Shown: positions 11,641-45,956 of the stretch, one piece after another | Numbering within the stretch: position 1 is the stretch's first letter | Layout: every line of letters starts with the position of its first letter | Position numbers and translations under genes: made by a program | Notes under the pieces: generated by a model | What the model saw: the letters and a program-made list of their open reading frames with translations, nothing else | Told to the model about the DNA's origin: nothing | Database searches by the model: none | Virus record (IMG/VR): IMGVR_UViG_3300028025_001549 | Coordinates: 1-60,465 of that record | Reading direction: 5' to 3' (one strand) | From: a virus | Taxonomy: Duplodnaviria; Caudoviricetes | DNA length: 60,465 bases

Positions 11641-11665
11641 ATAAATTGATTGAAAGGTGTTTATT

Positions 11666-17759: not shown

Positions 17760-17936
17760 ATGGACCAAGTATTTGTACGTTGTGCCCTAGATGGACATGA
17801 GAATCAAAAGTATTGTGGATTGGTTGAACACTACAAAACCAATGGAACTGCCGACCAGTGCCCACATCAACAAGAATGTAGTGATTTGAAAACCCATGTT
17901 AATAATGAAGAAGGAAAATTAAATGAAATTAAGTAA
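17760..17936 (+). CDS. 58 aa Cys/His-containing hypothetical protein (not in ORF track)
   Basis: AGGGAG RBS; MDQVFVRCALDGHENQKYCG...CPHQQEC. Confidence 0.55.
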   Translation: MDQVFVRCALDGHENQKYCGLVEHYKTNGTADQCPHQQECSDLKTHVNNEEGKLNEIK

Positions 17937-25264: not shown

Positions 25265-25626
25265 AAGTAGCAATCAATCGTTGTTTTGGTGGGTTCGGTA
25301 TTTCGAATGAAGCATTCGAGAAATTACTGGACCGTAAAGGTATTGCATTTGATAAAGTCGAAGCTGAGGAAGGTCGTGCTTTTGTGGGTGCGACTTATTA
25401 TGAGGCAGGTTACTCTGGTAATGATGACTACTACCTAAGTGATTACAGTATGACTGAGGATCGCGCAGATCTAGATTTGATCGCAGTTATTGAAGAACTG
25501 GGTGATAAAGCAAACTCTTTTGCAGCAGATATTCGTATTGTTGAGATTCCTGACGATGTCAAATGGCACATTCATGAGTACGATGGACTTGAACATGTAG
25601 CAGAAGATCATAGGACTTGGGATTGA
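25261..25626 (+). CDS. conserved phage hypothetical protein
   Basis: KVAINRCFGGFGIS, LIAVIEELG, IVEIPDDVKWHIHEYDGLE. Confidence 0.75.
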   Translation: MKVAINRCFGGFGISNEAFEKLLDRKGIAFDKVEAEEGRAFVGATYYEAGYSGNDDYYLSDYSMTEDRADLDLIAVIEELGDKANSFAADIRIVEIPDDVKWHIHEYDGLEHVAEDHRTWD

Positions 25627-27134
25627 TGGCTGACATAATTATACTAAGTGGTTCAAAGGTAAATGAAGATACTATGCCTCAGATCCAACGATCTCTTGGT
25701 CCGTATCGCATTGCTTCTGAGTTAAAGAAACATGGATATAGCGCAGTTGTTATTGACTATTGTCAATACATGACAGCAGAAGAAATTAATAATGCTTTAT
25801 CTAAACATTTAACTAAAAATACCTTATGGGTAGGATATTCATCAACATTTTTCTTCTTAACTAAACCAGATGGTGTTTTTTCAAAAATTGAAAAGATGTA
25901 TCAAACCAATTCATATGAAAAAATGCAAAGCATTTATGCTTATGTTAAAGAGAACAGTTCAGCTAAACTTGTTTTTGGTGGAGCGTATGCATTAATCTCT
26001 CATGCTGATCATAAAATTGATTACTACCTAGCAGGATATGCTGATGTTACTTGTGTAGATTTAACAAATTTTTTGGCTGGAAAAACTAAACAAATCCAAT
26101 ACCCAATACCAATTGAAACTGATGATGGCGGCAAATCTATTTTAATAGATGCGTCGAAATACCCAGAGCCTCAAATGGATACACTTCAAACATTCTATCA
26201 TGATAAAGATTTTTGTTTACTTCCAGGTGAAGGTATTCCTTTAGAATTTGCAAGAGGATGTATTTTTAAATGTAAGTTTTGTTCATACCCATTGCTAGGT
26301 AAAAAGAAAGGCACTTATATTAGGGATATGGAAGAAGTTCGTGATGAACTTCTTAGACTTTGGGAAACCAATGGCACAGATTCTTTTTATATTACTGATG
26401 ACACGTTTAATGATGATAATGATAAAATGGAAGAGTTTCACAAACTGTTTACTTCATTACCATTCAAACCGAAGTTTGCTTGTTTCTTAAGATTAGATTT
26501 AATTGATAGGTTCCCTCATCAAGCAGATCTTCTTCTTGAAGCTGGATTGGTTGGCAACTTTTTTGGTATTGAATCATTTAATCATAAAAGTGCAAAAGCA
26601 ATTGGTAAAGGATTGCATCCAGATAGAATTAAAGAAAGATTGAAATGGGTTCGTGAAAAGTGGAAGGGTAAAGTTAATACTGGTGTTGGCTTAATTATTG
26701 GATTGCCATATGATGATGACAAATATTTCCAAGAACTTTGGGATTATATTCATAGTGGTGATTACCCAGTTCAACATACATCATTTAATGCTTTACACAT
26801 AACAGATAAAACAAAAGGGGTTAATCTTTATGGATCTGAGTTTGCTATGAATCCTGAAATTTATGGTTATGCTTTTGATGATAACGGACATTGGTATCAT
26901 AAGGAACAAGGCTTGGATTTTAATATGTGCAGGAATATTGCTTATAATTTTGGCAATAGCATGTCAGACAAAACATTAGTTCCAGACTTTCAAGTAATAA
27001 CATATTTAAATCTTGGTATACCTATGCAAGATATTGTTACTTTGACTGAGAATCAGATACGGTCAAAATACAATATTGCTGAGATGAATAATGATAAATT
27101 GACCATGTATAAACAAATGATTGGAGCAATATAA
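25626..27134 (+). CDS. B12-binding-like radical SAM enzyme
   Basis: LGPYRIASEL and VFGGAY N-domain; EFARGCIFKCKFC (CxxxCxxC); DDTFND, FGIES, GLIIGLP. Confidence 0.88.
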   Translation: MADIIILSGSKVNEDTMPQIQRSLGPYRIASELKKHGYSAVVIDYCQYMTAEEINNALSKHLTKNTLWVGYSSTFFFLTKPDGVFSKIEKMYQTNSYEKMQSIYAYVKENSSAKLVFGGAYALISHADHKIDYYLAGYADVTCVDLTNFLAGKTKQIQYPIPIETDDGGKSILIDASKYPEPQMDTLQTFYHDKDFCLLPGEGIPLEFARGCIFKCKFCSYPLLGKKKGTYIRDMEEVRDELLRLWETNGTDSFYITDDTFNDDNDKMEEFHKLFTSLPFKPKFACFLRLDLIDRFPHQADLLLEAGLVGNFFGIESFNHKSAKAIGKGLHPDRIKERLKWVREKWKGKVNTGVGLIIGLPYDDDKYFQELWDYIHSGDYPVQHTSFNALHITDKTKGVNLYGSEFAMNPEIYGYAFDDNGHWYHKEQGLDFNMCRNIAYNFGNSMSDKTLVPDFQVITYLNLGIPMQDIVTLTENQIRSKYNIAEMNNDKLTMYKQMIGAI

Positions 27135-28884: not shown

Positions 28885-29285
28885 TGTTAGAATGTTTAAT
28901 CGCAGGGGATTCAATAGCAGTTGGAATTGCCAACGTAAGAAAAGAATGCGTTTCGTACTCTAAAGGTGGAATTAATTCTTACCAATGGCTCAATAAAAAT
29001 ATTCAGAATACGCCACTTCAAGCACGTCATGTTATTATCTCGCTTGGTTCAAATGACCACAAGTATATTAAAACAGAACAAGAACTAAGAACTATTCGTC
29101 AACTTACAAATGCCCAAAGAGTTTATTGGGTAATGCCAAGCAATAAGTTTCCAAATGCACAGTCAGCAGTTTGGCATGTTGCCAATGAACATAATGATAT
29201 AATCCTTAATACTGAAAGATATCAAACAGATGGTGTGCATCCATCATGGGCAGGGTATAAAGAATTAGCTGAGAAAACAAAATAA
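28884..29285 (+). CDS. SGNH/GDSL-like hydrolase
   Basis: GDSIA, SLGSND, DGVHP. Confidence 0.8.
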   Translation: MLECLIAGDSIAVGIANVRKECVSYSKGGINSYQWLNKNIQNTPLQARHVIISLGSNDHKYIKTEQELRTIRQLTNAQRVYWVMPSNKFPNAQSAVWHVANEHNDIILNTERYQTDGVHPSWAGYKELAEKTK

Positions 29286-31771
29286 TGGAATTTTATACTT
29301 CGGTTCACCCGATTGGAGATCGAATCTTCATTCGTGGTGTTGAGAATGGTAAGCGTTACCAACGCAAACTAGATTTCTCTCCTACTCTTTATGTAACTTC
29401 AAAGAAACCCTCCAAGTGGAAGACACTGGAGGGATCATTCGTTGATGAAGTGAATCCTGGATCTATCAAAGATACCAGAGAATTCATTAAACGATATGAT
29501 GGTGTTCAGGGATTTGATGTTTACGGTAACTCAAACTATGCGTATCAATACATCAGCGATAACTATTCACATGATGTTAATTGGGATATGGAACAGATTA
29601 AGGTATTCACCATTGACATTGAAACTTCAACTGAGAATGGTTTCCCTGATATCAAATCTGCCAATGAAGAGATTCTGTTAATCACTGTCAAAGAACTATC
29701 AACTAAACGTATTATTACTTTCGGCAGTAAGACTTATGTCAATCCTCGTGAAGATGTAATCTATGTTAATTGTAAAGATGAACAAGCACTTCTTACTCAA
29801 TTCCTAGAGTTTTGGTCTAAGAGTCATCCTGATGTTATCACTGGTTGGAATACTGACTTCTTCGATATGCCATATCTTATTCGTAGGATTGAGCGTGAAC
29901 TTGGCGATGGTGAATCTAATAAACTAAGCCCATGGGGTTATGTGAATGAGCGCAAGACGTTCATCAAAGGTAATGAAGAGATTCACTACGATATCGTTGG
30001 TATCGCTCAACTAGATTATCTTGAACTTTATAAGAAATATACATATTCTAAACAGGAATCATATCGCCTTGATTATATCGCTGACCAAGAACTTGGTGAC
30101 AAGAAGAAAGTCAATCCAGGTGATTCTTTCAAAGATTTCTATACCAATCACTGGCAAGAATTCGTTGACTATAACATACATGACGTAGAGTTGGTTGACA
30201 AGTTAGAAGATAAGATGCGTCTGATTGAGTTGCATTTGACTATGGCTTACAATGCGAAAATTAATTTCGAAGATGTTTATTCTCAGGTTCGTATGTGGGA
30301 TACGATTATCTATAATCACTTGCGTAAAAAAGGTATCGTTGTTCCAGCAAAGTCTTACTCTGGTAAAGATTCTCAGTTCGAAGGTGCTTATGTTAAAGAT
30401 CCTATCATTGGTCTACATAAATGGATGGCATCCTTTGACTTGAACTCATTGTACCCTCACTTGATCATGCAGTATAACATTAGTCCTGAGACTTTGACAT
30501 CTGAAAAGATTAGTGTCACTGTTGACAAACTACTCAATCAAGAGATTGATACTACATATGTTAAGCAACGAGATCTTGCGCTAACTGCCAACGGCTGGAC
30601 TTATACCAAAGAGTTCAAAGGGTTTATGCCTGAGTTGATGGAACAGATGTATAAGAATCGTTCTAAGTTTAAGAAACAGATGCTTGTTATTCAGCAAGAG
30701 TATGAGAAAGATAAGTCCAAGAAACACTTGTTGAAAGATATCTCTCGTCTTAATAATCTGCAGATGGCAATGAAGATTGCTCTTAACTCTGCTTATGGTG
30801 CGATGGGTAATCAGTATTTCCGATACTTTGATATCCGTATGGCTGAGGGTATTACTACGTCAGGTCAGTTGTCTATTCGTTGGATGGCAAACAAGTTAAA
30901 TGCATTTATGAATAAAACTCTCAAGACTGAGGGTAAGGATTACGTTGTTGCGATTGATACTGACTCAATTTATCTTACTCTTGAAACTCTAGTTGAGAAG
31001 ATGTGTGAAGGTAAAACTGACGAACAGAAGATTAGGTTTATGGACAAGATCTGTGAAGATGTTTTTCAACCATTCATTGATAGTGGGTATCAAGAACTGG
31101 CTGATTATATGAATGCGTATAGTCAGAAGATGCAGATGAAGCGTGAGGTTCTGGCTGACAAAGGTATCTGGACTGCTAAGAAACGATACATTCTTAATGT
31201 TCATAACTCAGAAGGTGTTCAGTATGAGAAACCAAAGATTAAAGTTATGGGTCTTGAGATGGTCAAGTCTTCTACACCAGCGGTCATTCGTGACAAGTTG
31301 CGAGATTCAATTGAGGTTATTCTTAGAGGTAATCAAGCCGATCTTCAGAACTATATCATGGAATTCCGTAAAGAGTTTGATAAACTTCCCGTTGAAGAGA
31401 TTGCGTTTCCTCGTGGCGTGAATGGTATGAAACAGTACGCTGGTTCACCTATCTATTCTAAGGGTACACCAATTCATGTTCGTGGTGCGTTGTTGTTTAA
31501 TCACTACACTAAGAAGATGGGACTTGATAAAAAGTATCAACCAATTCGGGATGGTGATAAGATTAGATTTGTCTATGTTCGTAAACCTAATAAATTCCAA
31601 GAAGATGTTATTGCGTTTAGTCAAGAGTTGCCACCAGAGTTTGAATTGCACTCCTACATAGATTATGACAAGATGTTTGAAAAAGTATTTACTGATGCTC
31701 TTCAAATTATTATTGGTTCGCTTGGTTGGTCTACTTCCGAGCAAAGTTCATTGGAGGATTTCTTTGGCTAA
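29285..31771 (+). CDS. 43: family B DNA polymerase gp43
   Basis: DIET exonuclease, SFDLNSLYP, KIALNSAYG, DTDS, KKRY; C-terminal SLEDFFG. Confidence 0.98.
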   Translation: MEFYTSVHPIGDRIFIRGVENGKRYQRKLDFSPTLYVTSKKPSKWKTLEGSFVDEVNPGSIKDTREFIKRYDGVQGFDVYGNSNYAYQYISDNYSHDVNWDMEQIKVFTIDIETSTENGFPDIKSANEEILLITVKELSTKRIITFGSKTYVNPREDVIYVNCKDEQALLTQFLEFWSKSHPDVITGWNTDFFDMPYLIRRIERELGDGESNKLSPWGYVNERKTFIKGNEEIHYDIVGIAQLDYLELYKKYTYSKQESYRLDYIADQELGDKKKVNPGDSFKDFYTNHWQEFVDYNIHDVELVDKLEDKMRLIELHLTMAYNAKINFEDVYSQVRMWDTIIYNHLRKKGIVVPAKSYSGKDSQFEGAYVKDPIIGLHKWMASFDLNSLYPHLIMQYNISPETLTSEKISVTVDKLLNQEIDTTYVKQRDLALTANGWTYTKEFKGFMPELMEQMYKNRSKFKKQMLVIQQEYEKDKSKKHLLKDISRLNNLQMAMKIALNSAYGAMGNQYFRYFDIRMAEGITTSGQLSIRWMANKLNAFMNKTLKTEGKDYVVAIDTDSIYLTLETLVEKMCEGKTDEQKIRFMDKICEDVFQPFIDSGYQELADYMNAYSQKMQMKREVLADKGIWTAKKRYILNVHNSEGVQYEKPKIKVMGLEMVKSSTPAVIRDKLRDSIEVILRGNQADLQNYIMEFRKEFDKLPVEEIAFPRGVNGMKQYAGSPIYSKGTPIHVRGALLFNHYTKKMGLDKKYQPIRDGDKIRFVYVRKPNKFQEDVIAFSQELPPEFELHSYIDYDKMFEKVFTDALQIIIGSLGWSTSEQSSLEDFFG

Positions 31772-33222: not shown

Positions 33223-33223
33223 T

Positions 33224-35977: not shown

Positions 35978-35986
35978 GAGAATAAT

Positions 35987-37348
35987 ATGGTAAAAGTAAT
36001 TGTAGCTGAAAAGAAAATTGATTGCTCACATTTGTTGGGTAAATTTGTTGATGAATCACATTATGATATTCTTGTTGAAGAAGATTGTGATGTTTACGCA
36101 CCACCAAACTGCGACCTAGCAACTCAAGCTGAGTGTAATGTTCCAAAAGATTGCGGGACTTGTGCCACAGGCGCAGACGAACACCGAATTGTATTTAAAT
36201 TCCGTAAAAACTATTTTAGTAAAGAACAACAAGATGCAGCATACGCTGGACTTAGAGAAGCAGCTATTCGCACAGAGAATCGTGGACTTGCTTCTGGTAT
36301 CAAAGATGGCATTGTTGCCACTTCAGAAGGTCGTGAGTGGGTTACCAACTACCAACAAGAAATGATGGAGCAGTTGATCAAGAATCGTAACTCATCTCTT
36401 GACAACGAAGACGTCATTGAAACTATCCGTGGAAAGTATCCACGTGAAGTAGATAAGAAAATGGCTGGTGGTAGCGGTAAGAATAACGTATGGGTCATCT
36501 CACGTTTCCGTGGTAAGTTTGATTTCGAAGCATGGTTGGATTCTATCAAACCAATGAATCGTCAAGAACGAGCAACTGCCACTGAAGAAGTATTGAAGAT
36601 GGTAAGTACCACTACCTATGGCACTGCAGTTAATTCTGGTATTGCTGGTTGGTTCGATCGTTATCCACGCATTCCTTATGGTCGTGCTACTTCTTATACA
36701 CGTGATAATCCAGAGAAGTTTGCTATGGCATATCCATTCTTACAAAATCTTGCCAAAGGTTTTAAAGATCTCCTGCCATGGCGTTATAATAATCAAATGC
36801 AAGCTGCAGAGAAACTAGACCCACGTTTCTTGGTTCCTGGAACTCCATTCACAACTATCACTGTGAACAAAACATTCCGAACTGCAGCCCACTATGACGC
36901 TGGTGATTTAAATACTGGTCTATCTAATCTATTGACTTTGTCAAATGACGGTAATTATACTGGCGGATATTTGATTGCTCCAGAATATCGTGTTGCGGTA
37001 AACGTAAGACCTGGAGATTTGTTATTGATTAACAACCATGAAGTTATGCATGGTAATACTGAAATCAAATGTGCTGAAGGTTCTGAGCGTGTATCATTGG
37101 TATGTTATTTCCGTGAGAAGATGCTAGAACTTGGGTCACATGAATATGAAGACACTCGCTATAACTTTGTTGAATCGCGTAGACTAAACAAAGAACATCC
37201 ACTTTGGAAACCCCTGTGGAATGGTGTATCTGAATCTATGTGGGACAGCCAAGAATGGTATGACTATTGTGAAGACAAACTTGGTCGCGAAGAGTTAATG
37301 AAGTATCACCCAGAAGCCAATGCTTCTTCACTAGAAAGTTTCTTCTGA
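35987..37348 (+). CDS. TET/JBP-family 2OG-Fe(II) dioxygenase (5-methylpyrimidine oxidase)
   Basis: SGIAGWFDR, FTTITVN..FRTAAHYDAGD (HxD), HGNT (distal His), RVSLVCYFRE (2OG-binding Arg). Confidence 0.82.
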   Translation: MVKVIVAEKKIDCSHLLGKFVDESHYDILVEEDCDVYAPPNCDLATQAECNVPKDCGTCATGADEHRIVFKFRKNYFSKEQQDAAYAGLREAAIRTENRGLASGIKDGIVATSEGREWVTNYQQEMMEQLIKNRNSSLDNEDVIETIRGKYPREVDKKMAGGSGKNNVWVISRFRGKFDFEAWLDSIKPMNRQERATATEEVLKMVSTTTYGTAVNSGIAGWFDRYPRIPYGRATSYTRDNPEKFAMAYPFLQNLAKGFKDLLPWRYNNQMQAAEKLDPRFLVPGTPFTTITVNKTFRTAAHYDAGDLNTGLSNLLTLSNDGNYTGGYLIAPEYRVAVNVRPGDLLLINNHEVMHGNTEIKCAEGSERVSLVCYFREKMLELGSHEYEDTRYNFVESRRLNKEHPLWKPLWNGVSESMWDSQEWYDYCEDKLGREELMKYHPEANASSLESFF

Positions 37349-38052
37349 TGTGTTCAGTCATTGGTGCTTTGATTCAGAATCCTACTTCAAAAGATTTTGA
37401 AACTATCCGTAAGGTATTCCTTGAGTCTAAGATTCGAGGAATGCACGCAACAGGTATGTCTGTCATTTATAATGGTAAGGTTCTAACATTCAAAGAGCCA
37501 GTTCCTGCTGATAGATTTGTGCATTTAGATGATTTAGAGGAGATGGTTAATGATGACGGTAATCTTTACCTTATTGGTCACTGTAGATATTCTACTAGCG
37601 ATTTATTGTATAACCAGCCGATAGCAAATGAAGAACACTCTATTGTTCACAATGGGGTTATTACTCAAGAACTAGCAGAGAACTGGGATAAGTTATTCAA
37701 CTACAAATGTGAAACAAAGAATGATTCTGAATTAGTATTACATTCTGATTCACCTCTTGAAGAATATACTGATGCATCAATGGCTGTTTGTGAACTAACT
37801 GTGGATAAGAAACTTCTTGCATATCGTAACGGTAAGCGTCCATTATACTTGACTTCTTTAGTGAATGGCGTTATAATTACTTCTACTGCGGATATTCCTA
37901 AACGTGCAGGTATTAAAATGCCAGCAGTTGAGATTCCAATGAATACATATATTACATTTGATGAACGTATGACAATGAATGTTCAAGTTGTTCAAACAAC
38001 AAAAACTGATTTACAAAAGGTAGATTATGAATCTCAAACCATATCCAACTGA
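37348..38052 (+). CDS. class II (Ntn) glutamine amidotransferase
   Basis: N-terminal Met-Cys, RG.HATG, GHCRYST, NQP, HNG, NDSE, RPL. Confidence 0.87.
   Translation: MCSVIGALIQNPTSKDFETIRKVFLESKIRGMHATGMSVIYNGKVLTFKEPVPADRFVHLDDLEEMVNDDGNLYLIGHCRYSTSDLLYNQPIANEEHSIVHNGVITQELAENWDKLFNYKCETKNDSELVLHSDSPLEEYTDASMAVCELTVDKKLLAYRNGKRPLYLTSLVNGVIITSTADIPKRAGIKMPAVEIPMNTYITFDERMTMNVQVVQTTKTDLQKVDYESQTISN
37849..37877 (+). promoter_or_regulatory. internal sigma70-type promoter upstream of the amidoligase
   Basis: TTGACT-N17-TATAAT. Confidence 0.55.
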
Positions 38053-38911
38053 TAAATTTACTTACGGAATGGAAATAGAGTGGGGTGATATTCCTCGCTC
38101 TTTTTCAATTCCAGAACATCTCGGCACTTGGGAATTCTCAGAACGAGATATTATTAATCTAAGAGAGCCATATCAATATGTCTGCGCTGACCCACTTGGT
38201 ATCGATCCTCCATTCGGTGGTGAGATCAACACGAAACCGACTAGAACTTGGGAAGAACAAGTTGATCGGTATTTTGAACTTCAAAAACTATTCACAGATA
38301 ATGGTACTCCACCTACAATTGGTGCTACTGCTCATACACACATTCATTGTCGTGTGCCTAATCTACGTGATGATATCGATGCACTGAAGCGTCTAACCAA
38401 ATACATTAAAGAAAACCAACACGATACTGTAGAGAACGTATATGGTTACTTTGAGCACAATCAAATGAAAGGTGCCAAAGGCGCAAAGATGTATTTGAAG
38501 TTTGATGGTGGTCGTACTCTTCCAGATTATATGGCAGATAACATCATCAATCTAGCAACAGACTTTCCTTCATTCATTAAGATGCACGCTGCAGGTAAAG
38601 ATGGAGTGTCAATGGGTCGCCCATTCCGATACGCTATTAATATGTACGCATTGAAACATATCGATACTGTAGAGTTTAGATTGTTTCGTGGAACAATGGA
38701 TCGTACTCAATTAGAATCTTGCTTTAGATTTGTTCAAGACTTCCTCGATGCTGCGCTGAACGATGGTCAAAGTGTTCTTGAACTAATCTCAAATAACAAT
38801 TATACTTTCCCTCCAATGATTTGGGAGTTGAATCAGTTTATTGGCTGGGAGAAAACTAAACATCCAGAAGATCGTGGAGAAAAGGTAAGAACTTATGTTG
38901 AAGTTGTCTAA
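38027..38911 (+). CDS. amidoligase (COOH-NH2 ligase, GS/GCS-like fold)
   Basis: TYGMEIEW, GGEIN, HTHIH, RYAIN, TVEFRLF. Confidence 0.8.
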   Translation: MNLKPYPTDKFTYGMEIEWGDIPRSFSIPEHLGTWEFSERDIINLREPYQYVCADPLGIDPPFGGEINTKPTRTWEEQVDRYFELQKLFTDNGTPPTIGATAHTHIHCRVPNLRDDIDALKRLTKYIKENQHDTVENVYGYFEHNQMKGAKGAKMYLKFDGGRTLPDYMADNIINLATDFPSFIKMHAAGKDGVSMGRPFRYAINMYALKHIDTVEFRLFRGTMDRTQLESCFRFVQDFLDAALNDGQSVLELISNNNYTFPPMIWELNQFIGWEKTKHPEDRGEKVRTYVEVV

Positions 38912-39449
38912 GTGTTCCCGTGCTGAATTTATCTCAAGTATAGATCAGACGAATCCACTTGATAACTTTGCCAGAACATTTGTTGCCAAAGCAGATATGC
39001 AAGACCAATGGGATTATTGTATTGGTGTATATGATGGTAATGATTTAACTGCTGCAATTATTACCACAATATCAAAGACCAAACCTCATGTTGCCAACCT
39101 TCAACTCTTACACACATTTGCAAAACATAGAGGTAAAGGTTCTGCTAGAATTCTATGCGAGGATTCGTTAAAACGTGCCAGAACAAATGGGGCTACATAT
39201 TATAGGGTGTCCTCTGAGAAACCTGCAGTGGGGTTTTACGAGCGTCTGGGGTTTAAGTTTTGGGGAGCCCAAAAGAGCGGATGCTCCCTATCGGTCTTTA
39301 GAATAGGGGGAGATACCTTCTTAGAGGGCGACTACGACCTCTCCGACACGACTATCAATAAAGCGGTCAACCGTAAGGGTAAAGGGGGTTGTACGACCTT
39401 CTACGACCTTGCAAACACCCAAAATAGGGTCAAAATAGACGATTTTTGA
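38895..39449 (+). CDS. GNAT acetyltransferase
   Basis: HRGKGSAR (motif A) and AVGFYERLGF (motif B). Confidence 0.85.
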   Translation: MLKLSKCSRAEFISSIDQTNPLDNFARTFVAKADMQDQWDYCIGVYDGNDLTAAIITTISKTKPHVANLQLLHTFAKHRGKGSARILCEDSLKRARTNGATYYRVSSEKPAVGFYERLGFKFWGAQKSGCSLSVFRIGGDTFLEGDYDLSDTTINKAVNRKGKGGCTTFYDLANTQNRVKIDDF

Positions 39450-39451
39450 GT

Positions 39452-39492
39452 CAAATATCGCTTTACTTTTATTGCGAAATAGGGTATAATAG
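39452..39492 (+). promoter_or_regulatory. early promoter module 4 (41 bp near-identical to 45898-45938)
   Basis: TTTACT 39462-39467, N17, TATAAT 39485-39490. Confidence 0.8.
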
Positions 39493-39523
39493 TGGTTGTA
39501 ACAATTGAAAATGGAACTATATC

Positions 39524-40810
39524 ATGAAACACACTACAAAATTTTATCTATATGCATGGTTAAAACGACAACCATATACAGTTAATATGGGAAAGAAGGT
39601 TTCGCAAAAAACTTCTTACGTTTCATCAGCATCATCACAAGAGTTCTGGAATGATTTTGGTAATGCCAAACTAGAACAGTATTGTATTTTTGAATCTGAT
39701 GATGAAGCAGTTGTTAGTGCATCTGAGTGGTGGGGACTTGATTATGGTATGAAAGTTTTGGGTAAAAATAAATTCTACAACAAGGTCAACAATGCCCATC
39801 GTGGCGACCAATCGTTAGTAACAGAAGAAATCAAACAGAAGATAGTTGACTTCTATGAAGGTAAATTGAAGCCAGAAACAACTACTGATACATTCTCACT
39901 TGGTAGGAATATTATTGACAAGGTTGAGAATGGTTTTTACCCAGTCATTCAATATCCAGTATACAAACTGGTTGAATTACAACGTAACCAAGCACGGGCG
40001 ATTGAACAGAATGTCACTACTGAAGACCAGATTGTTCGAGCATATAATGACTCACCAGAACAAGTGTTGCGTGATATCACTCCAGCAACATTAGTGAAAC
40101 GTCCAGATGGTAGTCTTGAAATTGTTAATGGCCATACTCGAATTGGTGCTGCTTCTAGATGTCGTGGATGGAATGAGATTCCTGTTTGTATAATAGAAGA
40201 ATCTGACTTTGGTGACACGAAAAAAGATATCGCTATTAATATCTTGCTCGCTGGTAGTTATGCTAATCGCCGAAGTCCAGTCATTACTAAAGAAAACACT
40301 GATGAAGACCTTATGTTCCAGATGGAAAATTATCTGGTAATTCAGGAGATGGATGCTTCTGTTGAAACTGCTCAAGAGTATATCAGAGAAGTTCTTACTG
40401 CTGAGTTTACAAAGAGCGCAGGTTCTAAAAGGGCAGCATCAGGTATTGTTACTAAGATTTTTAACAAGTACGAGAAACAGAAAAATGAAATGTCAATCAC
40501 TAAGAACATGATTGTTTATAGTGATTCTGAACTGCGTGATTATTGTTATAAGAAATATGAGAAGCGTGGCATCGCTGCTGTTCACTCAACTATGAGTAGC
40601 ATGGCTCACTTTGACCCACTTGGTTTTATCTTCCATCACTCAAGTCATATGAATACTCTCCCTAAGAAACTCGCTATTGTACTTCACTGTAGGACAAAAG
40701 ACGAATATGTAAAAGGACAAGCTGCTGGTAAAGTTACCGCAATGCAAAGGGTCATCGATGGCTATAAACTACCTGTCGTGATTGATGTTTTACCTTCCTT
40801 TGAAGAATAA
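39524..40810 (+). CDS. ParB/Srx-like domain protein with GIY-YIG-like N-terminus
   Basis: LEIVNGHTRIGAA...IPVCII (ParB-like); FYLY..MGKK..YVSS..E..FYNK N-domain. Confidence 0.6.
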   Translation: MKHTTKFYLYAWLKRQPYTVNMGKKVSQKTSYVSSASSQEFWNDFGNAKLEQYCIFESDDEAVVSASEWWGLDYGMKVLGKNKFYNKVNNAHRGDQSLVTEEIKQKIVDFYEGKLKPETTTDTFSLGRNIIDKVENGFYPVIQYPVYKLVELQRNQARAIEQNVTTEDQIVRAYNDSPEQVLRDITPATLVKRPDGSLEIVNGHTRIGAASRCRGWNEIPVCIIEESDFGDTKKDIAINILLAGSYANRRSPVITKENTDEDLMFQMENYLVIQEMDASVETAQEYIREVLTAEFTKSAGSKRAASGIVTKIFNKYEKQKNEMSITKNMIVYSDSELRDYCYKKYEKRGIAAVHSTMSSMAHFDPLGFIFHHSSHMNTLPKKLAIVLHCRTKDEYVKGQAAGKVTAMQRVIDGYKLPVVIDVLPSFEE

Positions 40811-41826
40811 TGGATTACAGACAACCACAAAATAATAGAGAAGCGTTCATCCGCTGGTACGCATGGTCATTAAAGTATGATGACTGTGACCCAGCTGTTT
40901 GGGCAACGAACTACCTCAACAAACGCTACGAGCATAATGATGAACAACGTCTTTGGCTTGCGTGGCTTTACGGTAACACTTATCAATTACCAACTGCGTG
41001 GGTATTGATGAATGAATTTCCTGATTATGAATTAGCAACAGTTGATAGAATTACGCAATGGAATACTACAAACTACAAACGACTGCGTTACCAAACTGAT
41101 ACAAAGTGGAACAAGGGGCATCTACCTGCCATGTTTGCTTCTTATCAACAGTTCATTGGTAACAGAACACAACGAGAAAGAATGGAAGGTTTTTATGGAG
41201 ATAATGAGGAAGCAAACTTTGATAACTTGTGGGAAAGCGTTAAGTCTGGGCTGCATAAGTTTGGTCGCTATTCCACTTGGTTTTATCTTCAGCATCTTAA
41301 GCATACCGCTGGTATTCGCATCAGCCCTACTAGTCTCATGCTGGATGATTATGATGGCTCTCGCTCTCATCGTAATGGATTACTTTGCGCCCTCGGCAGA
41401 CACGACGATATGGATAGAAAACTCAATGCAGGCGAGTATGCAACTCTTGAGCACGAAGCCAGATCTATTATCACCGAAACCAAAGATAGATTCCCAGATT
41501 TGGAAGCGCAAATAGATTTCTTTACAATGGAAACCTGCTTATGTTCATTCAAGAAAATCTTTAGAGCACACCATGGTCGTTACCTTGGATATTACCTAGA
41601 TCGTCAGGCTGAAGAGATTATCAAAGCTGAGGGTGATGGTTGGTATGGTATTGATTGGGATGTCCTTTGGCAAGCAAGAGATGAAACTATTGACTTACGC
41701 TTGGATAACAAAAGAGGAATTGATAAAGAAAAGTTTCCTGCATTTATAAATTCAGGTAGAATAGAAAACTTGGAATGGATGTTTGATGATGAAGAACCTA
41801 TGTTGATTGGATTGGAGAATTTTTAA
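40810..41826 (+). CDS. amino acid:DNA transferase (alpha-glutamyl/putrescinyl-thymine pyrophosphorylase-like, HhH fold)
   Basis: DCDP, WLAWLYG, KFGRYSTWFYLQHL, METCLCSFKK, YLGYY. Confidence 0.78.
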   Translation: MDYRQPQNNREAFIRWYAWSLKYDDCDPAVWATNYLNKRYEHNDEQRLWLAWLYGNTYQLPTAWVLMNEFPDYELATVDRITQWNTTNYKRLRYQTDTKWNKGHLPAMFASYQQFIGNRTQRERMEGFYGDNEEANFDNLWESVKSGLHKFGRYSTWFYLQHLKHTAGIRISPTSLMLDDYDGSRSHRNGLLCALGRHDDMDRKLNAGEYATLEHEARSIITETKDRFPDLEAQIDFFTMETCLCSFKKIFRAHHGRYLGYYLDRQAEEIIKAEGDGWYGIDWDVLWQARDETIDLRLDNKRGIDKEKFPAFINSGRIENLEWMFDDEEPMLIGLENF

Positions 41827-42248
41827 TGGCTATTACTAAAGGACAATTTGGTGGATTGACTGGTGCGATTTATGATGATATGAATAGTAGTGTAACTATT
41901 TCATCACCAATGATGGGTAGCGCAAGCACAATTACTACCAGTTCTAATATCACACCAATGCGCACTCCGACTGAAGTTATTCTAGATCGTTATCAGTTAA
42001 ATGAAATCACTGTTCAGCATCGAGTTCAAGAGTTTGAACTTATGAAACTGCGTGAAAGTAATGTAGATTATGCTACTGAGATTAAACAAAATCTAGCCAA
42101 GTGGGCTTCAGAAGAAGTTACTAACAAGATGACCTTTACTAAAAAGACAGAAATAAACACAGATACCCATTCTTTCCGTGGACGTGTATGGGTCTTTAGT
42201 AAAGAAGAACTAATTAAAATGATTGAGGAAATTAGAAATGGCATTTAA
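41826..42248 (+). CDS. hypothetical protein within the modification cluster
   Basis: 140 aa ORF coupled to both neighbours. Confidence 0.6.
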   Translation: MAITKGQFGGLTGAIYDDMNSSVTISSPMMGSASTITTSSNITPMRTPTEVILDRYQLNEITVQHRVQEFELMKLRESNVDYATEIKQNLAKWASEEVTNKMTFTKKTEINTDTHSFRGRVWVFSKEELIKMIEEIRNGI

Positions 42249-42849
42249 TGAAAACGTGGGTGTAGTTGACACCATCAAAGTAGAAAGGGTAACTAATGCT
42301 ATGAAGACCAGAAAGATTATCGCAGTTGGTGGCTCACCTGGAACTGGCAAGACTACTTTGTTTCGTAAGTTTATGGAAGATAAAACTTGGCTAGAAGTTT
42401 CCCCTGCCAAGTTGGTAAATGCCAGTTACAATACCGAGAGAGATTTATACATCCTTGGTAAGTATGATGATGGCGAAGTATTCGCTGGAACTGACCGACT
42501 ATCCATGGCAGTTCAACCACCTCTTCAAGAATGGGTCGCCTCCCATAATTGTAATATCCTTTTCGAGGGAGATCGGGTTTTTAACCAATCATTCCTAGAG
42601 TTCTGTATGGGTCTCCCAAATACACAATTAGAAGTGGTATTTCTAAAGGCTCCAAAAGATATCCTAGAACAACGCTATAAAGATCGTGGATCCGACCAAT
42701 CTGAGCAATTCCTACGTGGAAGAGAAACTAAATATAGTAACCTGATGTCAAACTTTGATTTGATGCCATATATTACTGAGTTTGCAAACACTAACTTAGA
42801 GGAGCAGACGAAGGTACTTGCTTTTTTGGAGAAGCAATTTATTAGTTAA
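42238..42849 (+). CDS. P-loop nucleotide kinase of the type linked to base-modification clusters
   Basis: GGSPGTGKTT, LGKY..GTDRLSMAVQP, LFEGDR, RY..RGS.Q. Confidence 0.78.
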   Translation: MAFNENVGVVDTIKVERVTNAMKTRKIIAVGGSPGTGKTTLFRKFMEDKTWLEVSPAKLVNASYNTERDLYILGKYDDGEVFAGTDRLSMAVQPPLQEWVASHNCNILFEGDRVFNQSFLEFCMGLPNTQLEVVFLKAPKDILEQRYKDRGSDQSEQFLRGRETKYSNLMSNFDLMPYITEFANTNLEEQTKVLAFLEKQFIS

Positions 42850-42869
42850 GCAAGCATCTTCTAGGGAAT

Positions 42870-43565: not shown

Positions 43566-43568
43566 ATA
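43561..43568 (+). promoter_or_regulatory. late promoter variant CCTAAATA
   Basis: TAAATA core upstream of 43593. Confidence 0.55.
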
Positions 43569-43592
43569 TCCCTATGTTAATATGGGGTTATT

Positions 43593-44507: not shown

Positions 44508-44519
44508 CATATTGCGTAT

Positions 44520-44527
44520 TATAAATA
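44520..44527 (+). promoter_or_regulatory. late promoter TATAAATA
   Basis: Exact consensus upstream of 44559. Confidence 0.75.
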
Positions 44528-44558
44528 ACCATATAACACTACTTAATTGATGGATTAA

Positions 44559-45938: not shown

Positions 45939-45956
45939 GTTAATAGGATATAAAAA

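What the first reader, a model, noticed from the sequence alone, without database searches (positions are those of the whole stretch)
35987..42849. Predicted DNA hypermodification pathway: TET/JBP oxidase + kinase + amino acid:DNA transferase + GATase + amidoligase + GNAT
Seen: directly after gene 41 are motif-supported genes for a TET/JBP-like dioxygenase, an Ntn glutamine amidotransferase, an amidoligase, a GNAT, an aGPT-Pplase-like transferase and a P-loop kinase. Known: in characterised thymidine-hypermodifying phages (ViI, M6, SP10, phiW-14), hmdU is made at the nucleotide level, phosphorylated on DNA, and displaced by an amine or amino acid via this transferase family. Inference: here hmU would instead be made on DNA by the dioxygenase and activated by the kinase. 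It would then be substituted with a group built or tailored by the GATase/amidoligase pair and acetylated by the GNAT. I know of no characterised base made by this combination, so it may be a new modified nucleoside, probably for restriction or CRISPR evasion.
Basis: partly seen in the sequence, partly recalled or inferred. Interest (0 to 1): 0.92.

Follow-up and report, generated by a model that had tools for sequence, protein, structure and literature searches.

The report
Phage thymine hypermodification gene cassette
An uncultured T4-like phage carries a tightly packed set of enzymes that most likely oxidise thymine already in its DNA and build a nitrogen-bearing, acylated side chain on it; this kind of gene set is already published, but the base it makes is still unknown.

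Summary
Window 35987-42849 carries eight co-directional, mostly overlapping genes directly after gp41: a TET/JBP dioxygenase, an Ntn glutamine amidotransferase (GATase), an amidoligase, a GNAT, a 428-aa gene the finding did not list, an amino acid:DNA transferase (AADT), a 140-aa unknown and a P-loop kinase.

It is not a new kind. Lee et al. 2021 and O'Toole et al. 2026 describe metavirome clusters joining TET_JBP with kinase, AADT, GATase and amidoligase. This scan also noted the same cassette in at least 15 other genomes. The product remains unknown.

New here:
- Four complete relatives have ThyX but no ThyA-family enzyme and no C5-methyltransferase, so thymine in DNA is the likely substrate.
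- Among 36 fully covered related islands, GATase occurs in 18, always with AADT and kinase, and with amidoligase in only 12. This suggests GATase feeds ammonia to the AADT.
- TET, AADT and GNAT end in the same tail as the phage's DNA polymerase, which suggests tethering to the sliding clamp. The only binding test gave weak support.
- The unlisted gene is a GIY-YIG-like/ParB-like fusion. It is a clean 1.3-kb optional insertion, so more likely of homing-endonuclease origin than an obligatory ParB activator.

Verdict: new member of a known kind, of moderate interest.

The parts
35987..37348 (+). TET/JBP-family (5mYOX) Fe(II)/2-oxoglutarate dioxygenase, 453 aa. It has a roughly 215-aa N-terminal extension with a Cys-rich loop and a C-terminal tail (SSLESFF) like that of the phage's DNA polymerase.
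   Evidence: Pfam Tet_JBP E 1.8e-26. phrog_24024 E 2.2e-150 over the whole length. H302xD304, H355 and R368 are invariant in 30 sequences and align to TET2. Tail pattern in 74 of 77 IMG/VR homologues.
37348..38052 (+). Stand-alone class II (Ntn) glutamine amidotransferase, 234 aa
   Evidence: GATase_6 E 1e-8. The purF N-domain is the best NCBIfam hit, E 5.5e-7. Cys2 invariant in 36 sequences. In related islands it occurs in 18 of 18 cases with AADT and kinase.
38027..38911 (+). Amidoligase_2-family COOH-NH2 ligase, 294 aa
   Evidence: On its own only E 0.04. 10 of 10 aligned homologues match, best 2e-7. A 30%-identical homologue lies inside an AADT/FAD-oxidoreductase/HMUDK cluster of phage Simon.
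38895..39449 (+). GNAT acyltransferase, 184 aa, ending in KIDDF
   Evidence: Acetyltransf_10 E 7.1e-9. R79-G80-K81-G82 invariant. Tail pattern in 12 of 23 homologues.
39462..39490 (+). Sigma-70-like promoter match (TTTACT-17-TATAAT). Relatives without the insert share it, and there it sits just upstream of the AADT gene.
   Evidence: such sites are not enriched in the region: 42 found, 42.2 expected. DNA alignment.
39524..40810 (+). Optional inserted gene, 428 aa: GIY-YIG-like N-domain (about 5-91), ParB_N/sulfiredoxin-fold domain (about 137-254, motif NGHTRIGAA), helical middle, and a C-terminal alpha/beta domain (329-428). The indel spans 39494-40806.
   Evidence: AF2 model, pLDDT 80.3. Foldseek top hits are Noc/ParB/PadC/KorB. 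VIA-align: KorB Z 9.3, sulfiredoxin Z 8.9, I-TevI catalytic domain Z 6.7. Indel borders. Present in 5 of 11 A-type islands. Absent from 4 of 4 complete relatives, with a positive control of 5 of 5.
40810..41826 (+). Amino acid:DNA transferase (AADT, formerly aGPT-Pplase clade 2), 338 aa, ending in GLENF
   Evidence: PF18724 E 4.4e-23. Cys245 invariant and Glu241 conserved, and both align to the ETxLC of M6 gp51. Tail pattern in 26 of 26 homologues.
41826..42248 (+). 140-aa protein of unknown function. It is conserved in part of the islands, including glycosyltransferase-type ones.
   Evidence: No family above cut-off. No atlas hit. Present in 3 of 17 GT-type islands and in most A-type islands.
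42223..42849 (+). P-loop kinase, 208 aa; predicted to phosphorylate 5-hmU in DNA
   Evidence: Ploopntkinase3 E 6.3e-7. Walker A invariant. Always with AADT (18 of 18). Not in PF18748, the family of M6 gp54.
29285..31771 (+). gp43 DNA polymerase, which ends in SSLEDFFG; the reference for the clamp-binding tail
   Evidence: DNA_pol_B E 1.4e-28. Tail read. 40 related polymerases end in the same motif.
17923..18579 (+). gp45 sliding clamp; proposed docking partner of the tails
   Evidence: gp45-slide_C E 1.6e-10. Complex test gave weak support.
55875..56555 (+). ThyX thymidylate synthase: the phage makes ordinary dTMP
   Evidence: PF02511 E 1.6e-47.
25617..27134 (+). Radical SAM enzyme, 505 aa; candidate accessory tailoring enzyme
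   Evidence: Radical_SAM E 4.9e-17. Paralogues of 46-50% identity lie inside the cassette in L021, L024 and L080/L081.

Best explanation
This is a post-replicative thymine-hypermodification cassette of an uncultured T4-like phage.

Proposed pathway:
1. The phage makes ordinary dTMP with ThyX and replicates with T.
2. The TET/JBP-family dioxygenase oxidises T in DNA to 5-hydroxymethyluracil.
3. The P-loop kinase phosphorylates the hydroxymethyl group.
4. The AADT uses its Cys/Glu pair to displace the phosphate with a nucleophile.
5. The Ntn GATase always travels with AADT and kinase. It most likely supplies that nucleophile as glutamine-derived ammonia, much as PurF displaces pyrophosphate (recalled chemistry). 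The product would be 5-aminomethyl-uracil.
6. The amidoligase then joins a carboxylic acid to the new amine, and the GNAT acylates the product.

TET, AADT and GNAT end in the same acidic-hydrophobic tail as the phage's own DNA polymerase. They probably dock on the gp45 sliding clamp and work behind the fork.

The 428-aa GIY-YIG-like/ParB-like gene is an optional insertion between a resident promoter-like element and the AADT start. It is probably derived from a homing endonuclease and is not a core pathway enzyme.

What is shown and what is inferred: the family assignments, gene content and synteny are shown here. T-to-5hmU activity is shown only for other phage 5mYOX enzymes in the literature. 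Every later chemical step, the order of steps and the clamp docking are inferred.
For: Setting. The window is T4-like: UvsX, gp41-type DnaB helicase, ligase, gp46-like SMC_N/Rad50-type ATPase; gp43, gp45, gp44, ribonucleotide reductase.

Families and motifs.

Thymine as substrate:
- ThyA family (PF00303): none in the window; 0 of 4 complete relatives.
- C5-methyltransferase (PF00145): none in the window; 0 of 4 complete relatives.
- ThyX: present in the window and in 4 of 4 complete relatives.

Literature:
- Phage clade C1/C2 5mYOXs convert T to 5hmU in E. coli and in vitro, and clade C1 is linked with GATases, P-loop kinases and AADTs (O'Toole 2026, PMC13229309; sections read).
- 5-HMUDK makes 5-PmdU. 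AADT transfers Gly or Ser through an essential Cys/Glu pair. PaMx11 gp48 acetylates 5-NmdU (Lee 2021, PMC8989533; passages read).

Synteny:
- 320 IMG/VR stretches encode relatives of this TET, and the best 80 were kept.
- In the loci that reach upstream, uvsX-g98-gp41-TET is conserved.
- 36 islands are covered from TET to the downstream anchor gene. They divide into 17 glycosyltransferase type, 11 window type, 6 GATase + second GNAT + AADT + kinase without amidoligase, 1 GATase + amidoligase + AADT + kinase without GNAT, and 1 with two AADT-like genes + kinase.
- GATase is present in 18, in 18 of 18 with AADT and kinase, and in 12 of 18 with an amidoligase.

Amidoligase context. A homologue (30% identity, E 7e-22) in phage Simon sits between an FAD-dependent oxidoreductase and a 5-hmdU kinase, next to an AADT. 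That is the place where PaMx11 has its acetyltransferase.

Tails:
- Only 4 of 69 window ORFs end in [LIVM][DE]xF plus 0-2 residues: polymerase, TET, GNAT and AADT. Shuffles gave a mean of 0.32.
- The pattern holds in 74 of 77 TETs, 26 of 26 AADTs, 8 of the 8 second-GNATs examined (of 10 found) and 12 of 23 GNATs. Of the 14 glycosyltransferases examined (of 17 found), 13 end in (L/M)ESLFG.
- It is absent from the GATases, amidoligases and kinases examined: 0 of 13 (of 43 found), 0 of 10 (of 26) and 0 of 12 (of 19).
- 40 related polymerases end in the same motif, most often SSLEDFFG (18 of 40).
- In distant phages the tails co-vary: C48C1 polymerase ATLEDFFG with TET ISLEEFFV, and DLP6 ATLDSFFA with ATLGDFFV.
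- The T4 gp43, gp55 and gp33 C-termini are interchangeable clamp-binding motifs (Geiduschek & Kassavetis 2010, PMC2988020; passages read).

Complex test, gp45 with TET residues 384-453: weak support.
- Median score 0.42 (runs 0.02, 0.53, 0.42); best of 3 controls 0.00.
- The runs agree in at least 79% of contacts, and partner pLDDT is at least 54.
- The mark was reached by 58 of 80 solved complexes and 2 of 110 mismatched pairs. At 0.60 or under, only 7 of those 80 solved complexes reached it, and so did both mismatches that passed.
- A clamp-peptide complex is solved for RB69, so the pass may reflect likeness only.
Against: - No chemistry was measured, and no read-level evidence of modification is available.
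- The kinase is not in PF18748, the family of the characterised 5-hmdU DNA kinase M6 gp54. BLAST similarity to gp54 is limited to the Walker A stretch (23 residues, E 6e-4). Its role rests on context.
- The window's own amidoligase scores under Pfam's cut-off.
- The kinase must act on DNA under this model, yet it lacks the tail (0 of 12 examined). Tail absence therefore does not separate DNA-acting from other enzymes.
- Only 12 of 23 GNATs fit the strict tail pattern.
- The complex score is weak, and one of three runs gave 0.02.
- A 2025 preprint found no T4 alpha- or beta-glucosyltransferase binding to gp45. It used C-terminally His-tagged enzymes (bioRxiv 10.64898/2025.12.06.692756; passages read).
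- O'Toole 2026 report that some clade C1 enzymes without ParB had no detectable activity.
- The window is a fragment, about 38% complete by CheckV.
- The AF2 model of TET was poor (pLDDT 58.4), so its N-terminal 215 residues remain unassigned.
- GATase feeding ammonia to the AADT is inferred from co-occurrence only.
Confidence: 0.78

Rival explanations
1. The 428-aa ParB-like protein is the obligatory activator of this TET. The system would then belong to the ParB-dependent subclass of phage T-dioxygenases (5mYOX176/ParB176 type).
For: - The protein has a ParB_N/sulfiredoxin-fold domain with a GxxRxxA-type motif.
- Divergent alleles at the same site match Pfam ParB_N weakly: L012 E 0.0014, L008 0.019, L065 0.0047, all under the cut-off.
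- O'Toole 2026 show ParB-dependent T oxidation, and ParB in 27% of 5mYOX contigs.
- Here the gene occurs only inside window-type cassettes: 5 of 11, against 0 of the 25 other fully covered islands.
Against: - It is optional. It is absent from 6 of 11 window-type islands. There is no ParB-like gene anywhere in 4 of 4 complete relatives, two of which carry the full cassette; the positive control was 5 of 5.
- The architecture differs. ParB176 has its nucleotide-binding domain at the very N-terminus (mutations N14, R16, S29, R56). Here a GIY-YIG-like domain comes first (I-TevI Z 6.7, rmsd 2.8 over 81 residues).
- Alleles at the same site are only 19-21% identical, while the flanking GNAT and AADT are 51-93% identical.
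- The insert is a clean indel between a resident promoter-like element and the AADT start.
- The same junction holds unrelated small ORFs in other loci, one of them weakly HNH-like (E 0.0098).
Confidence: 0.2
2. One reading: the AADT installs a free amino acid on 5-PmdU. The GATase/amidoligase pair then amidates that amino acid's carboxylate, and the GNAT acetylates it.
For: - Characterised AADTs use free Gly or Ser (Lee 2021).
- GATase and amidoligase genes overlap by 26 nt in the window.
- An Ntn aminohydrolase and an amidoligase homologue also lie near each other in the 7-deazaguanine gene region of Vibrio phage 2.275.O.
Against: - 6 of 18 GATase-bearing islands have no amidoligase, yet all 18 have AADT and kinase.
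- In phage Simon the amidoligase homologue occurs with an FAD-dependent oxidoreductase. No GATase homologue was found in the 16.8-kb locus (E <= 0.01; Pfam on 10 of its ORFs). There the ligase would meet a free amine, not a carboxylate that needs ammonia.
Confidence: 0.3
3. The dioxygenase acts on 5-methylcytosine rather than thymine, and the cassette builds a cytosine hypermodification.
For: - Phage clade A/B 5mYOXs oxidise 5mC.
- The in-vitro enzymes of O'Toole 2026 also oxidise 5mC iteratively (abstract and sections read).
Against: - No C5-methyltransferase in the window or in 0 of 4 complete relatives.
- No ThyA-family hydroxymethylase.
- The downstream enzymes, AADT and kinase, are known only from thymidine pathways.
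Confidence: 0.04
4. The GATase, amidoligase and GNAT are not part of DNA modification. They make or modify a small molecule or a protein, and only TET, kinase and AADT act on DNA.
For: - GATase and amidoligase lack the polymerase-like tail: 0 of 13 and 0 of 10 examined.
- Amidoligase_2 proteins are also known outside DNA contexts (recalled).
Against: - The genes overlap within one co-directional block.
- GATase co-occurs strictly with AADT and kinase, 18 of 18.
- The GNAT carries the tail in the window, and a GNAT acting on modified thymine is precedented.
- Two divergent amidoligases do end in polymerase-like tails: EVGF in L046 and GFFG in L068.
Confidence: 0.08

Closest known systems
Metavirome TET_JBP + 5-HMUDK + aGPT-Pplase2 (AADT) contigs with amidoligase and glutaminotransferase genes (Lee et al. 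2021, NAR, PMC8989533, Fig. 2 sequences 22-25; passages read)
   Same: The same enzyme families in one cluster. No dUMP hydroxymethylase. TET_JBP proposed to make 5-hmU in situ for the kinase/transferase route. Product unknown.
   Different: I could not check whether this very lineage is among their sequences, because figures and supplements were not available. Here the kinase is PF18751 rather than the HMUDK family PF18748.
ParB-dependent (clade C1) phage T-dioxygenases, e.g. 5mYOX176/ParB176 (O'Toole et al. 2026, PNAS, PMC13229309; outline and sections 5, 6, 9, 11, 12 and 13 read)
   Same: A phage 5mYOX with a C-terminal extension, next to GATase, P-loop kinase and AADT, with a ParB-fold gene in the cluster.
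   Different: The ParB-like gene here is optional (5 of 11 islands; 0 of 4 complete genomes). It starts with a GIY-YIG-like domain and varies far more than its flanks. This TET is 453 aa with a roughly 215-aa N-terminal extension, whereas the paper's enzymes are about 290-300 aa. Clade placement was not testable, since their sequences are in closed supplements.
Pseudomonas phage PaMx11 pathway to 5-acetylaminomethyl-dU: kinase, gp46 AADT, gp47 FAD oxidoreductase, gp48 acetyltransferase (Lee 2021; passages read)
   Same: The kinase-then-AADT logic, a primary amine on the C5 methyl, and a final GNAT-type acylation.
   Different: PaMx11 starts from 5-hmdU made at the nucleotide level and unmasks the amine from glycine with an FAD enzyme. 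Here a DNA dioxygenase starts the route. There is no FAD enzyme, but a GATase and an amidoligase are present.
Base J synthesis in trypanosomes (JBP1/2 oxidation of T, then glucosylation; as summarised in O'Toole 2026)
   Same: T in DNA is oxidised by a TET/JBP enzyme. 17 of 36 sister islands at this very site pair the same TET with a glycosyltransferase.
   Different: The window's island uses the kinase/AADT route, not a sugar.
Sliding-clamp-binding C-termini of T4 gp43, gp55 and gp33 (Geiduschek & Kassavetis 2010, PMC2988020; passages read)
   Same: A short acidic-hydrophobic C-terminal tail that matches the cognate polymerase's tail, on proteins that work on DNA.
   Different: Not described for DNA-modifying enzymes of this pathway in the papers I read. 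A clamp link of T4 alpha-glucosyltransferase was proposed and is now contested. Binding was not measured here.
Free-standing GIY-YIG homing endonucleases of T4-like phages (Seg type; I-TevI catalytic domain 1ln0). The Seg comparison is recalled; the fold match is.
   Same: Presence/absence polymorphism of a whole ORF at an intergenic site between conserved genes, with a GIY-YIG-like N-domain.
   Different: The canonical Arg is not conserved. The DNA-binding part is replaced by a ParB/sulfiredoxin-fold domain. Nuclease activity is unknown.

Membership tests
TET/JBP (5mYOX) dioxygenases, Pfam PF12851 | Profile match above the curated cut-off | tested here: met
   92.7 bits against 34.9, E 1.8e-26.
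TET/JBP (5mYOX) dioxygenases, Pfam PF12851 | HxD...H iron ligands and the 2-oxoglutarate Arg | tested here: met
   H302, D304, H355 and R368 are invariant in 30 sequences. They align to the corresponding TET2 stretches.
TET/JBP (5mYOX) dioxygenases, Pfam PF12851 | Oxidation of T (not 5mC) in DNA | not testable with these tools
   Indirect only: no C5-methyltransferase or ThyA-family gene in 0 of 4 complete relatives, and ThyX in 4 of 4.
ParB-dependent subclass of phage T-dioxygenases (O'Toole 2026) | A cognate ParB homologue regularly co-located with the 5mYOX | tested here: not met
   ParB-like gene in 5 of 11 window-type islands and 0 of 25 others. None in 4 of 4 complete relatives, with a positive control of 5 of 5.
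ParB-dependent subclass of phage T-dioxygenases (O'Toole 2026) | ParB with an N-terminal nucleotide-binding domain plus a C-terminal dimerisation domain, and no DNA-binding domain | tested here: inconclusive
   A ParB_N/sulfiredoxin fold lies at residues 137-254 (Z 8-9.3). It is preceded by a GIY-YIG-like domain at residues 5-91. The C-terminal domain (329-428) has no clear match.
ParB-dependent subclass of phage T-dioxygenases (O'Toole 2026) | Placement in clade C1 of their network or tree | not testable with these tools
Amino acid:DNA transferase (AADT, aGPT-Pplase clade 2), PF18724 | Profile match above cut-off | tested here: met
   82.7 bits against 26.2. The characterised M6 gp51 hits the same family at E 1.4e-46.
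Amino acid:DNA transferase (AADT, aGPT-Pplase clade 2), PF18724 | Essential Cys with a neighbouring Glu | tested here: met
   C245 is invariant in 8 sequences. E241 is present in 7 of 8 by my reading of the alignment. It aligns to the ETVLC of M6 gp51.
5-hmdU DNA kinase (5-HMUDK), PF18748 | Membership of the family of the characterised kinase M6 gp54 | tested here: not met
   The window kinase matches PF18751 (29.5 bits) and does not list PF18748 at E <= 0.1. M6 gp54 matches PF18748 at E 7.7e-18. BLAST similarity is limited to Walker A.
5-hmdU DNA kinase (5-HMUDK), PF18748 | P-loop kinase encoded beside an AADT | tested here: met
   18 of 18 AADT-bearing islands have it. Walker A is invariant.
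Class II (Ntn) glutamine amidotransferases | N-terminal nucleophile Cys right after Met1, and a profile match | tested here: met
   Cys2 invariant in 36 sequences. GATase_6 scores 35.7 against 27.
Amidoligase_2 (PF12224) | Profile match above cut-off | tested here: inconclusive
   The window protein scores 14.2 bits against 22. 10 of 10 aligned homologues match at E <= 0.1, best 2e-7. No PDB sequence match.
GNAT acyltransferases | Profile match and the R/Q-x-x-G-x-G/A CoA-binding motif (motif recalled) | tested here: met
   Acetyltransf_10 scores 36.2 against 23.6. R79-G80-K81-G82 invariant.
gp45 sliding-clamp ligands with a polymerase-type C-terminal tail | C-terminal acidic-hydrophobic motif like that of the cognate polymerase, conserved across homologues | tested here: met
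   Polymerase SSLEDFFG against TET SSLESFF. 74 of 77 TETs and 26 of 26 AADTs carry the pattern. 40 related polymerases share the motif. Covariation in C48C1 and DLP6.
gp45 sliding-clamp ligands with a polymerase-type C-terminal tail | Physical binding to the clamp | tested here: inconclusive
   Complex test gave weak support: 0.42 against a best control of 0.00, and one of three runs gave 0.02.
GIY-YIG homing endonucleases | GIY-YIG fold with catalytic Tyr, Arg, Glu and Asn | tested here: inconclusive
   I-TevI Z 6.7, rmsd 2.8, 81 residues aligned. Y10, G23 and N86 are invariant and a Glu sits at 67/68, but there is no conserved Arg. No Pfam GIY-YIG hit.
GIY-YIG homing endonucleases | Whole-ORF presence/absence at an intergenic site between conserved genes | tested here: met
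   Homology to empty-site loci ends at 39493 and resumes at 40807.

The most novel reading that the evidence does not exclude
The cassette makes a thymine derivative not yet described. Glutamine-derived ammonia would be passed by the stand-alone Ntn GATase to the AADT, giving 5-aminomethyl-uracil directly on DNA. The amidoligase would extend it with a carboxylic or amino acid, and the GNAT would cap it. TET, AADT and GNAT would do this while riding the gp45 sliding clamp through tails that copy the DNA polymerase's clamp-binding motif. If so, hypermodification is physically coupled to the replisome.
Probability: 0.3. Interest if true: 0.75.

Novelty: new member of a known kind. Interest (0 to 1): 0.42.

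Why it matters
Phage DNA hypermodifications block restriction enzymes and shape CRISPR and other defences. Their enzymes are also tools for DNA chemistry.

This cassette belongs to a published but chemically unsolved class, so naming its product would add a new natural nucleoside. Three leads sharpen the experiments:
- GATase goes with the AADT rather than with the amidoligase.
- The amidoligase occupies the slot of the PaMx11 acetyltransferase in another phage.
- The polymerase-like tails on TET, AADT and GNAT offer a concrete, testable way for post-replicative enzymes to find newly made DNA.

The optional GIY-YIG/ParB-like insert is a caution. A ParB-fold gene next to a 5mYOX is not by itself proof of the ParB-dependent subclass.

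Tried and rejected
- Megablast of the whole stretch against 50,697 phage records found nothing. No close cultured relative is held there.
- phmmer of the 428-aa protein and an hmmsearch of the amidoligase profile against PDB sequences gave 0 matches each.
- The AF2 model of the TET protein was too poor to search with (pLDDT 58.4). The N-terminal 215 residues stay unassigned, and I make no claim about their fold.
- The ESM atlas gave no usable hit for the 140-aa protein.
- Promoter-like and terminator-like sites are not enriched in 33000-46000: 42 found against 42.2 expected, and 7 against 7.5. I make no operon claim from them beyond the shared element at 39462-39490.
- I considered that the TET neighbours in cultured relatives would show the cassette. 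They do not: DLP6 and C48C1 have other genes, and Cr30 has an AADT 1.8 kb downstream, a TAGT-like protein and a kinase.
- I considered that the amidoligase/GATase pair might belong to a 7-deazaguanine system, because Vibrio phage 2.275.O has an amidoligase homologue beside such genes. The strict link of GATase with AADT and kinase argues against it. I did not search the window for TGT/DpdA or queuosine-pathway genes, so that absence is untested.
- Iyer et al. 2013 (NAR) is not held. What I say about it comes from Lee 2021's introduction and from recall.
- The supplements of O'Toole 2026 (sequences, Dataset S10) and of Lee 2021 are closed and may show that this very lineage was already screened.
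- Not used: the look-up of sequencing runs and read laying (short reads cannot show this modification) and the search of protein representatives.

Full report
WHAT IS THERE

The window is a 60,465-base IMG/VR virus record, about 38% complete by CheckV, and it is the whole 'genome' held. It is T4-like. It encodes UvsX, a gp41-type DnaB helicase, an ATP-dependent ligase, a gp46-like SMC_N/Rad50-type ATPase and thioredoxin. It also encodes gp43 polymerase, the gp45 clamp, the gp44 clamp loader and ribonucleotide reductase, and ThyX.

Directly after gp41 lie eight + strand ORFs, almost all overlapping or abutting:

| ORF | Coordinates | Length |
|---|---|---|
| TET/JBP | 35987-37348 | 453 aa |
| GATase | 37348-38052 | 234 aa |
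| Amidoligase | 38027-38911 | 294 aa |
| GNAT | 38895-39449 | 184 aa |
| 428-aa gene | 39524-40810 | 428 aa |
| AADT | 40810-41826 | 338 aa |
| 140-aa unknown | 41826-42248 | 140 aa |
| P-loop kinase | 42223-42849 | 208 aa |

FAMILY CHECKS

Pfam supports Tet_JBP (E 1.8e-26), GATase_6 (1e-8), GNAT (7.1e-9), ADDT (4.4e-23) and Ploopntkinase3 (6.3e-7), all above their curated cut-offs. Amidoligase_2 reaches only E 0.04, under its cut-off. I aligned the amidoligase with nine homologues of 32-93% identity from related loci. All 10 members match Amidoligase_2 at E <= 0.1, best 2e-7.

Catalytic residues are kept:
- TET: H302xD304, H355 and R368 are invariant in 30 sequences. A profile of these aligns the same motifs to human TET2, E 0.0017.
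- GATase: Cys2 is invariant in 36 sequences. The GNAT RGKG motif and the kinase Walker A are also invariant.
- AADT: Cys245 and Glu241 correspond to the Cys/Glu pair that Lee 2021 showed to be essential. They align to the ETVLC of M6 gp51.

One membership fails. The characterised 5-hmdU DNA kinase M6 gp54 belongs to PF18748 (E 7.7e-18). The window kinase matches PF18751 instead and resembles gp54 only at the Walker A stretch. Its role is inferred from context.

IS IT KNOWN?

Yes, as a class.
- Lee et al. 2021 (PMC8989533; passages read) report viral contigs that lack a dUMP hydroxymethylase. These contigs carry a TET_JBP protein beside 5-HMUDK and aGPT-Pplase2, with amidoligase and glutaminotransferase genes of unknown role.
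- O'Toole et al. 2026 (PMC13229309; outline and sections 5, 6, 9, 11, 12 and 13 read) show that phage clade C1 and C2 5mYOX enzymes oxidise T to 5hmU. They define a ParB-dependent subclass that is 'consistently linked' with GATases, P-loop kinases and AADTs.
- My two literature searches for a characterised product of the amidoligase/GATase-bearing route found none.
- This scan has noted the same cassette in at least 15 other genomes, with follow-up reports reaching similar readings. Those are not independent evidence.

SUBSTRATE

The window has no ThyA-family gene and no C5-methyltransferase, but it is a fragment. I therefore searched four relatives that CheckV rates 100% complete. They are 165-174 kb, and three have terminal repeats.
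- ThyA family: 0 of 4.
- C5-methyltransferase: 0 of 4.
- ThyX: 4 of 4.

Two of these four carry the full window-type cassette. The phage group thus makes ordinary dTMP. It has no nucleotide-level route to hmU or hmC and no way to make 5mC. That leaves thymine in DNA as the substrate of the dioxygenase.

COMPARATIVE ANATOMY

The TET protein has 320 relatives in IMG/VR, and the best 80 (64-96% identity) were fetched. In the loci that reach upstream, uvsX-g98-gp41-TET is conserved. What follows TET varies in modules.

Among the 36 loci covered from TET to the downstream anchor gene:

| Island type | Count |
|---|---|
| TET + GT-B glycosyltransferase (a base-J-like layout) | 17 |
| Window type: GATase, amidoligase, GNAT, AADT, kinase | 11 |
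| GATase, a different GNAT, AADT, kinase; no amidoligase | 6 |
| GATase, amidoligase, AADT, kinase, plus a 2OG oxygenase and a low-molecular-weight phosphatase | 1 |
| Two AADT-like genes plus kinase | 1 |

GATase is present in 18 islands. It occurs in 18 of 18 with AADT and kinase, but in only 12 of 18 with an amidoligase. This does not fit a GATase that merely serves the amidoligase.

My preferred reading is that the GATase delivers ammonia to the AADT. The AADT would then displace the phosphate of 5-PmdU to give 5-aminomethyl-uracil. The logic resembles PurF, whose N-domain is the GATase's best NCBIfam hit; the PurF chemistry is recalled.

A second clue concerns the amidoligase. Its only two homologues in 50,697 phage records are in phage Simon and in a Vibrio jumbo phage. 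In Simon it lies in a PaMx11-like cluster: AADT, FAD-dependent oxidoreductase, amidoligase, HMUDK, HMUDK helical domain, Nmad5 and a ThyA-like gene. That is the slot where PaMx11 has the acetyltransferase that caps 5-aminomethyl-dU. An ATP-dependent ligase that acylates the new amine fits both contexts. These chemical steps are inferences.

POLYMERASE-LIKE TAILS

A first-reader note on this genome (e1-6341702) led me to look at the C-termini.
- The polymerase ends in SSLEDFFG, TET in SSLESFF, AADT in GLENF and GNAT in KIDDF.
- With the pattern [LIVM][DE]xF plus 0-2 residues at the very end, only 4 of 69 window ORFs match. They are exactly these four. Shuffles gave a mean of 0.32 and a maximum of 4 in 500.

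Across homologues:

| Protein | Match the pattern | Examined, of those found |
|---|---|---|
| TET | 74 of 77 | all IMG/VR homologues with a full-length ORF |
| AADT | 26 of 26 | all |
| Second GNAT | 8 of 8 | 8 of 10 |
| GNAT | 12 of 23 | all; the rest end in related DLNxFL or LDFHSFL |
| Glycosyltransferase | 1 of 14 | 14 of 17; the other 13 end in (L/M)ESLFG |
| GATase | 0 of 13 | 13 of 43 |
| Amidoligase | 0 of 10 | 10 of 26 |
| Kinase | 0 of 12 | 12 of 19 |

Further points:
- 40 related polymerases end in the same motif, most often SSLEDFFG (18 of 40).
- In distant cultured phages the TET tail follows the polymerase tail: C48C1 ATLEDFFG with ISLEEFFV, and DLP6 ATLDSFFA with ATLGDFFV. In Cr30 a TAGT-like protein ends in DLSKLF beside a polymerase ending in DLSSLFD.
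- In T4 the similar C-termini of gp43, gp55 and gp33 are interchangeable clamp-binding motifs (PMC2988020).
- A complex test of the window's gp45 with TET residues 384-453 gave weak support. The median was 0.42 (runs 0.02, 0.53, 0.42) and the best of three controls was 0.00. The runs agree in at least 79% of contacts, and partner pLDDT is at least 54. The mark was reached by 58 of 80 solved complexes and 2 of 110 mismatches. At 0.60 or under, only 7 of the 80 solved complexes reached it, along with both mismatches that passed. A clamp-peptide complex is solved for RB69, so the pass may be from likeness.

Against the idea:
- The kinase must act on DNA yet lacks the tail.
- A 2025 preprint found no binding of T4 glucosyltransferases to gp45, though it used C-terminal His tags.

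I rate clamp docking at about even odds or slightly better.

THE 428-AA GENE

Pfam, PHROGs and NCBIfam give no family for it. It has 21 homologues of 46-97% identity. An AF2 model built on 18 sequences has pLDDT 80.3.
- Foldseek's best hits are Noc, ParB, PadC and KorB, E from 8.9e-4.
- VIA-align places a ParB_N/sulfiredoxin fold at residues 137-254: KorB Z 9.3, sulfiredoxin Z 8.9, ParB Z 8.5.
- It places the I-TevI GIY-YIG catalytic domain at residues 5-91: Z 6.7, rmsd 2.8, 81 residues.
- Y10, G23 and N86 are invariant and a Glu at 67/68 is kept, but the canonical Arg is not.

The gene is optional:
- It is present in 5 of 11 window-type islands and in none of the 25 others.
- No ParB-like gene is found anywhere in the four complete relatives. 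The same profile found it in 5 of 5 loci known to carry it.
- Alleles at the same site share only 19-21% identity, while the flanking GNAT and AADT share 51-93%.
- At the DNA level, homology to five empty-site relatives runs through the GNAT stop and a promoter-like element to base 39493 and resumes at 40807, three bases before the AADT start.
- Other loci carry unrelated small ORFs at this junction, one of them weakly HNH-like.
- ParB176 of O'Toole 2026 has its nucleotide-binding domain at the very N-terminus, unlike this protein.

I conclude that the gene is most likely a descendant of a homing endonuclease sitting in an insertion hot spot. I leave 20% for a role as TET activator.

VERDICT

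The cassette is a new member of a published kind with an unknown product.

Limits of this work:
- No chemistry was measured.
- The TET model was poor.
- The supplements of both key papers were closed.

Noticed in passing
window 25617-27134: A 505-aa radical SAM enzyme about 9 kb upstream of the cassette. Paralogues of 46-50% identity sit inside the cassette, between AADT and the 140-aa gene, in L021, L024 and L080/L081. It may be a movable tailoring enzyme of the same pathway.
   Followed up: partly
L013-L015, L018, L023, L025-L028, L035, L037-L041, L043, L078 (IMG/VR loci): At the same genomic site, 17 of 36 fully covered islands pair the same TET with a 449-aa Glycos_transf_1 glycosyltransferase and have no kinase/AADT route. 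This is a base-J-like layout. The 14 glycosyltransferases examined end in (L/M)ES(L/F)FG.
   Followed up: partly
L102 (phage Simon, PQ683277.1) 4882-12561: An unannotated phage record with a PaMx11-like thymidine hypermodification cluster. An amidoligase homologue stands where PaMx11 has its acetyltransferase: AADT, FAD oxidoreductase, amidoligase, HMUDK, HMUDK_hel, Nmad5, ThyA-like.
   Followed up: partly
L101 (Vibrio phage 2.275.O, MG592671.1) 7896-13104: An amidoligase homologue lies beside 7-deazaguanine genes (QueF-like, QueC-like, GTP cyclohydrolase I, a vitamin uptake transporter) and an Ntn aminohydrolase. The amidation module may also serve deazaguanine modification.
   Followed up: no
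L006, L007, L010, L016, L020, L024, L064, L083 between TET and GATase; also L033, L060: A roughly 198-aa 2OG-FeII_Oxy_5 protein is inserted at the TET|GATase junction in several relatives. A different small 2OG oxygenase sits between amidoligase and GNAT in L019, L030 and L033. These are further optional modules.
   Followed up: no
L100 (Pseudomonas phage M6, NC_007809.1) 11686-12249; window 42223-42849: The characterised 5-hmdU DNA kinase M6 gp54 is annotated 'terminase small subunit' in RefSeq. The same label is carried by phrog_800, which the window kinase hits. This looks like a propagating misannotation.
   Followed up: no
L002 (Caulobacter phage Cr30) 13238-14164: A 308-aa protein with a weak TET-associated glycosyltransferase match (E 8.5e-4) next to an AADT. 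It ends in DLSKLF, close to the Cr30 polymerase tail DLSSLFD.
   Followed up: no
window 45429-47153: A ferritin/Dps-like protein (45429-45875) and a DUF6267 protein (45957-47153, E 2.7e-105) lie downstream. Other first-reader notes on this genome cover His-rich paralogues here.
   Followed up: no
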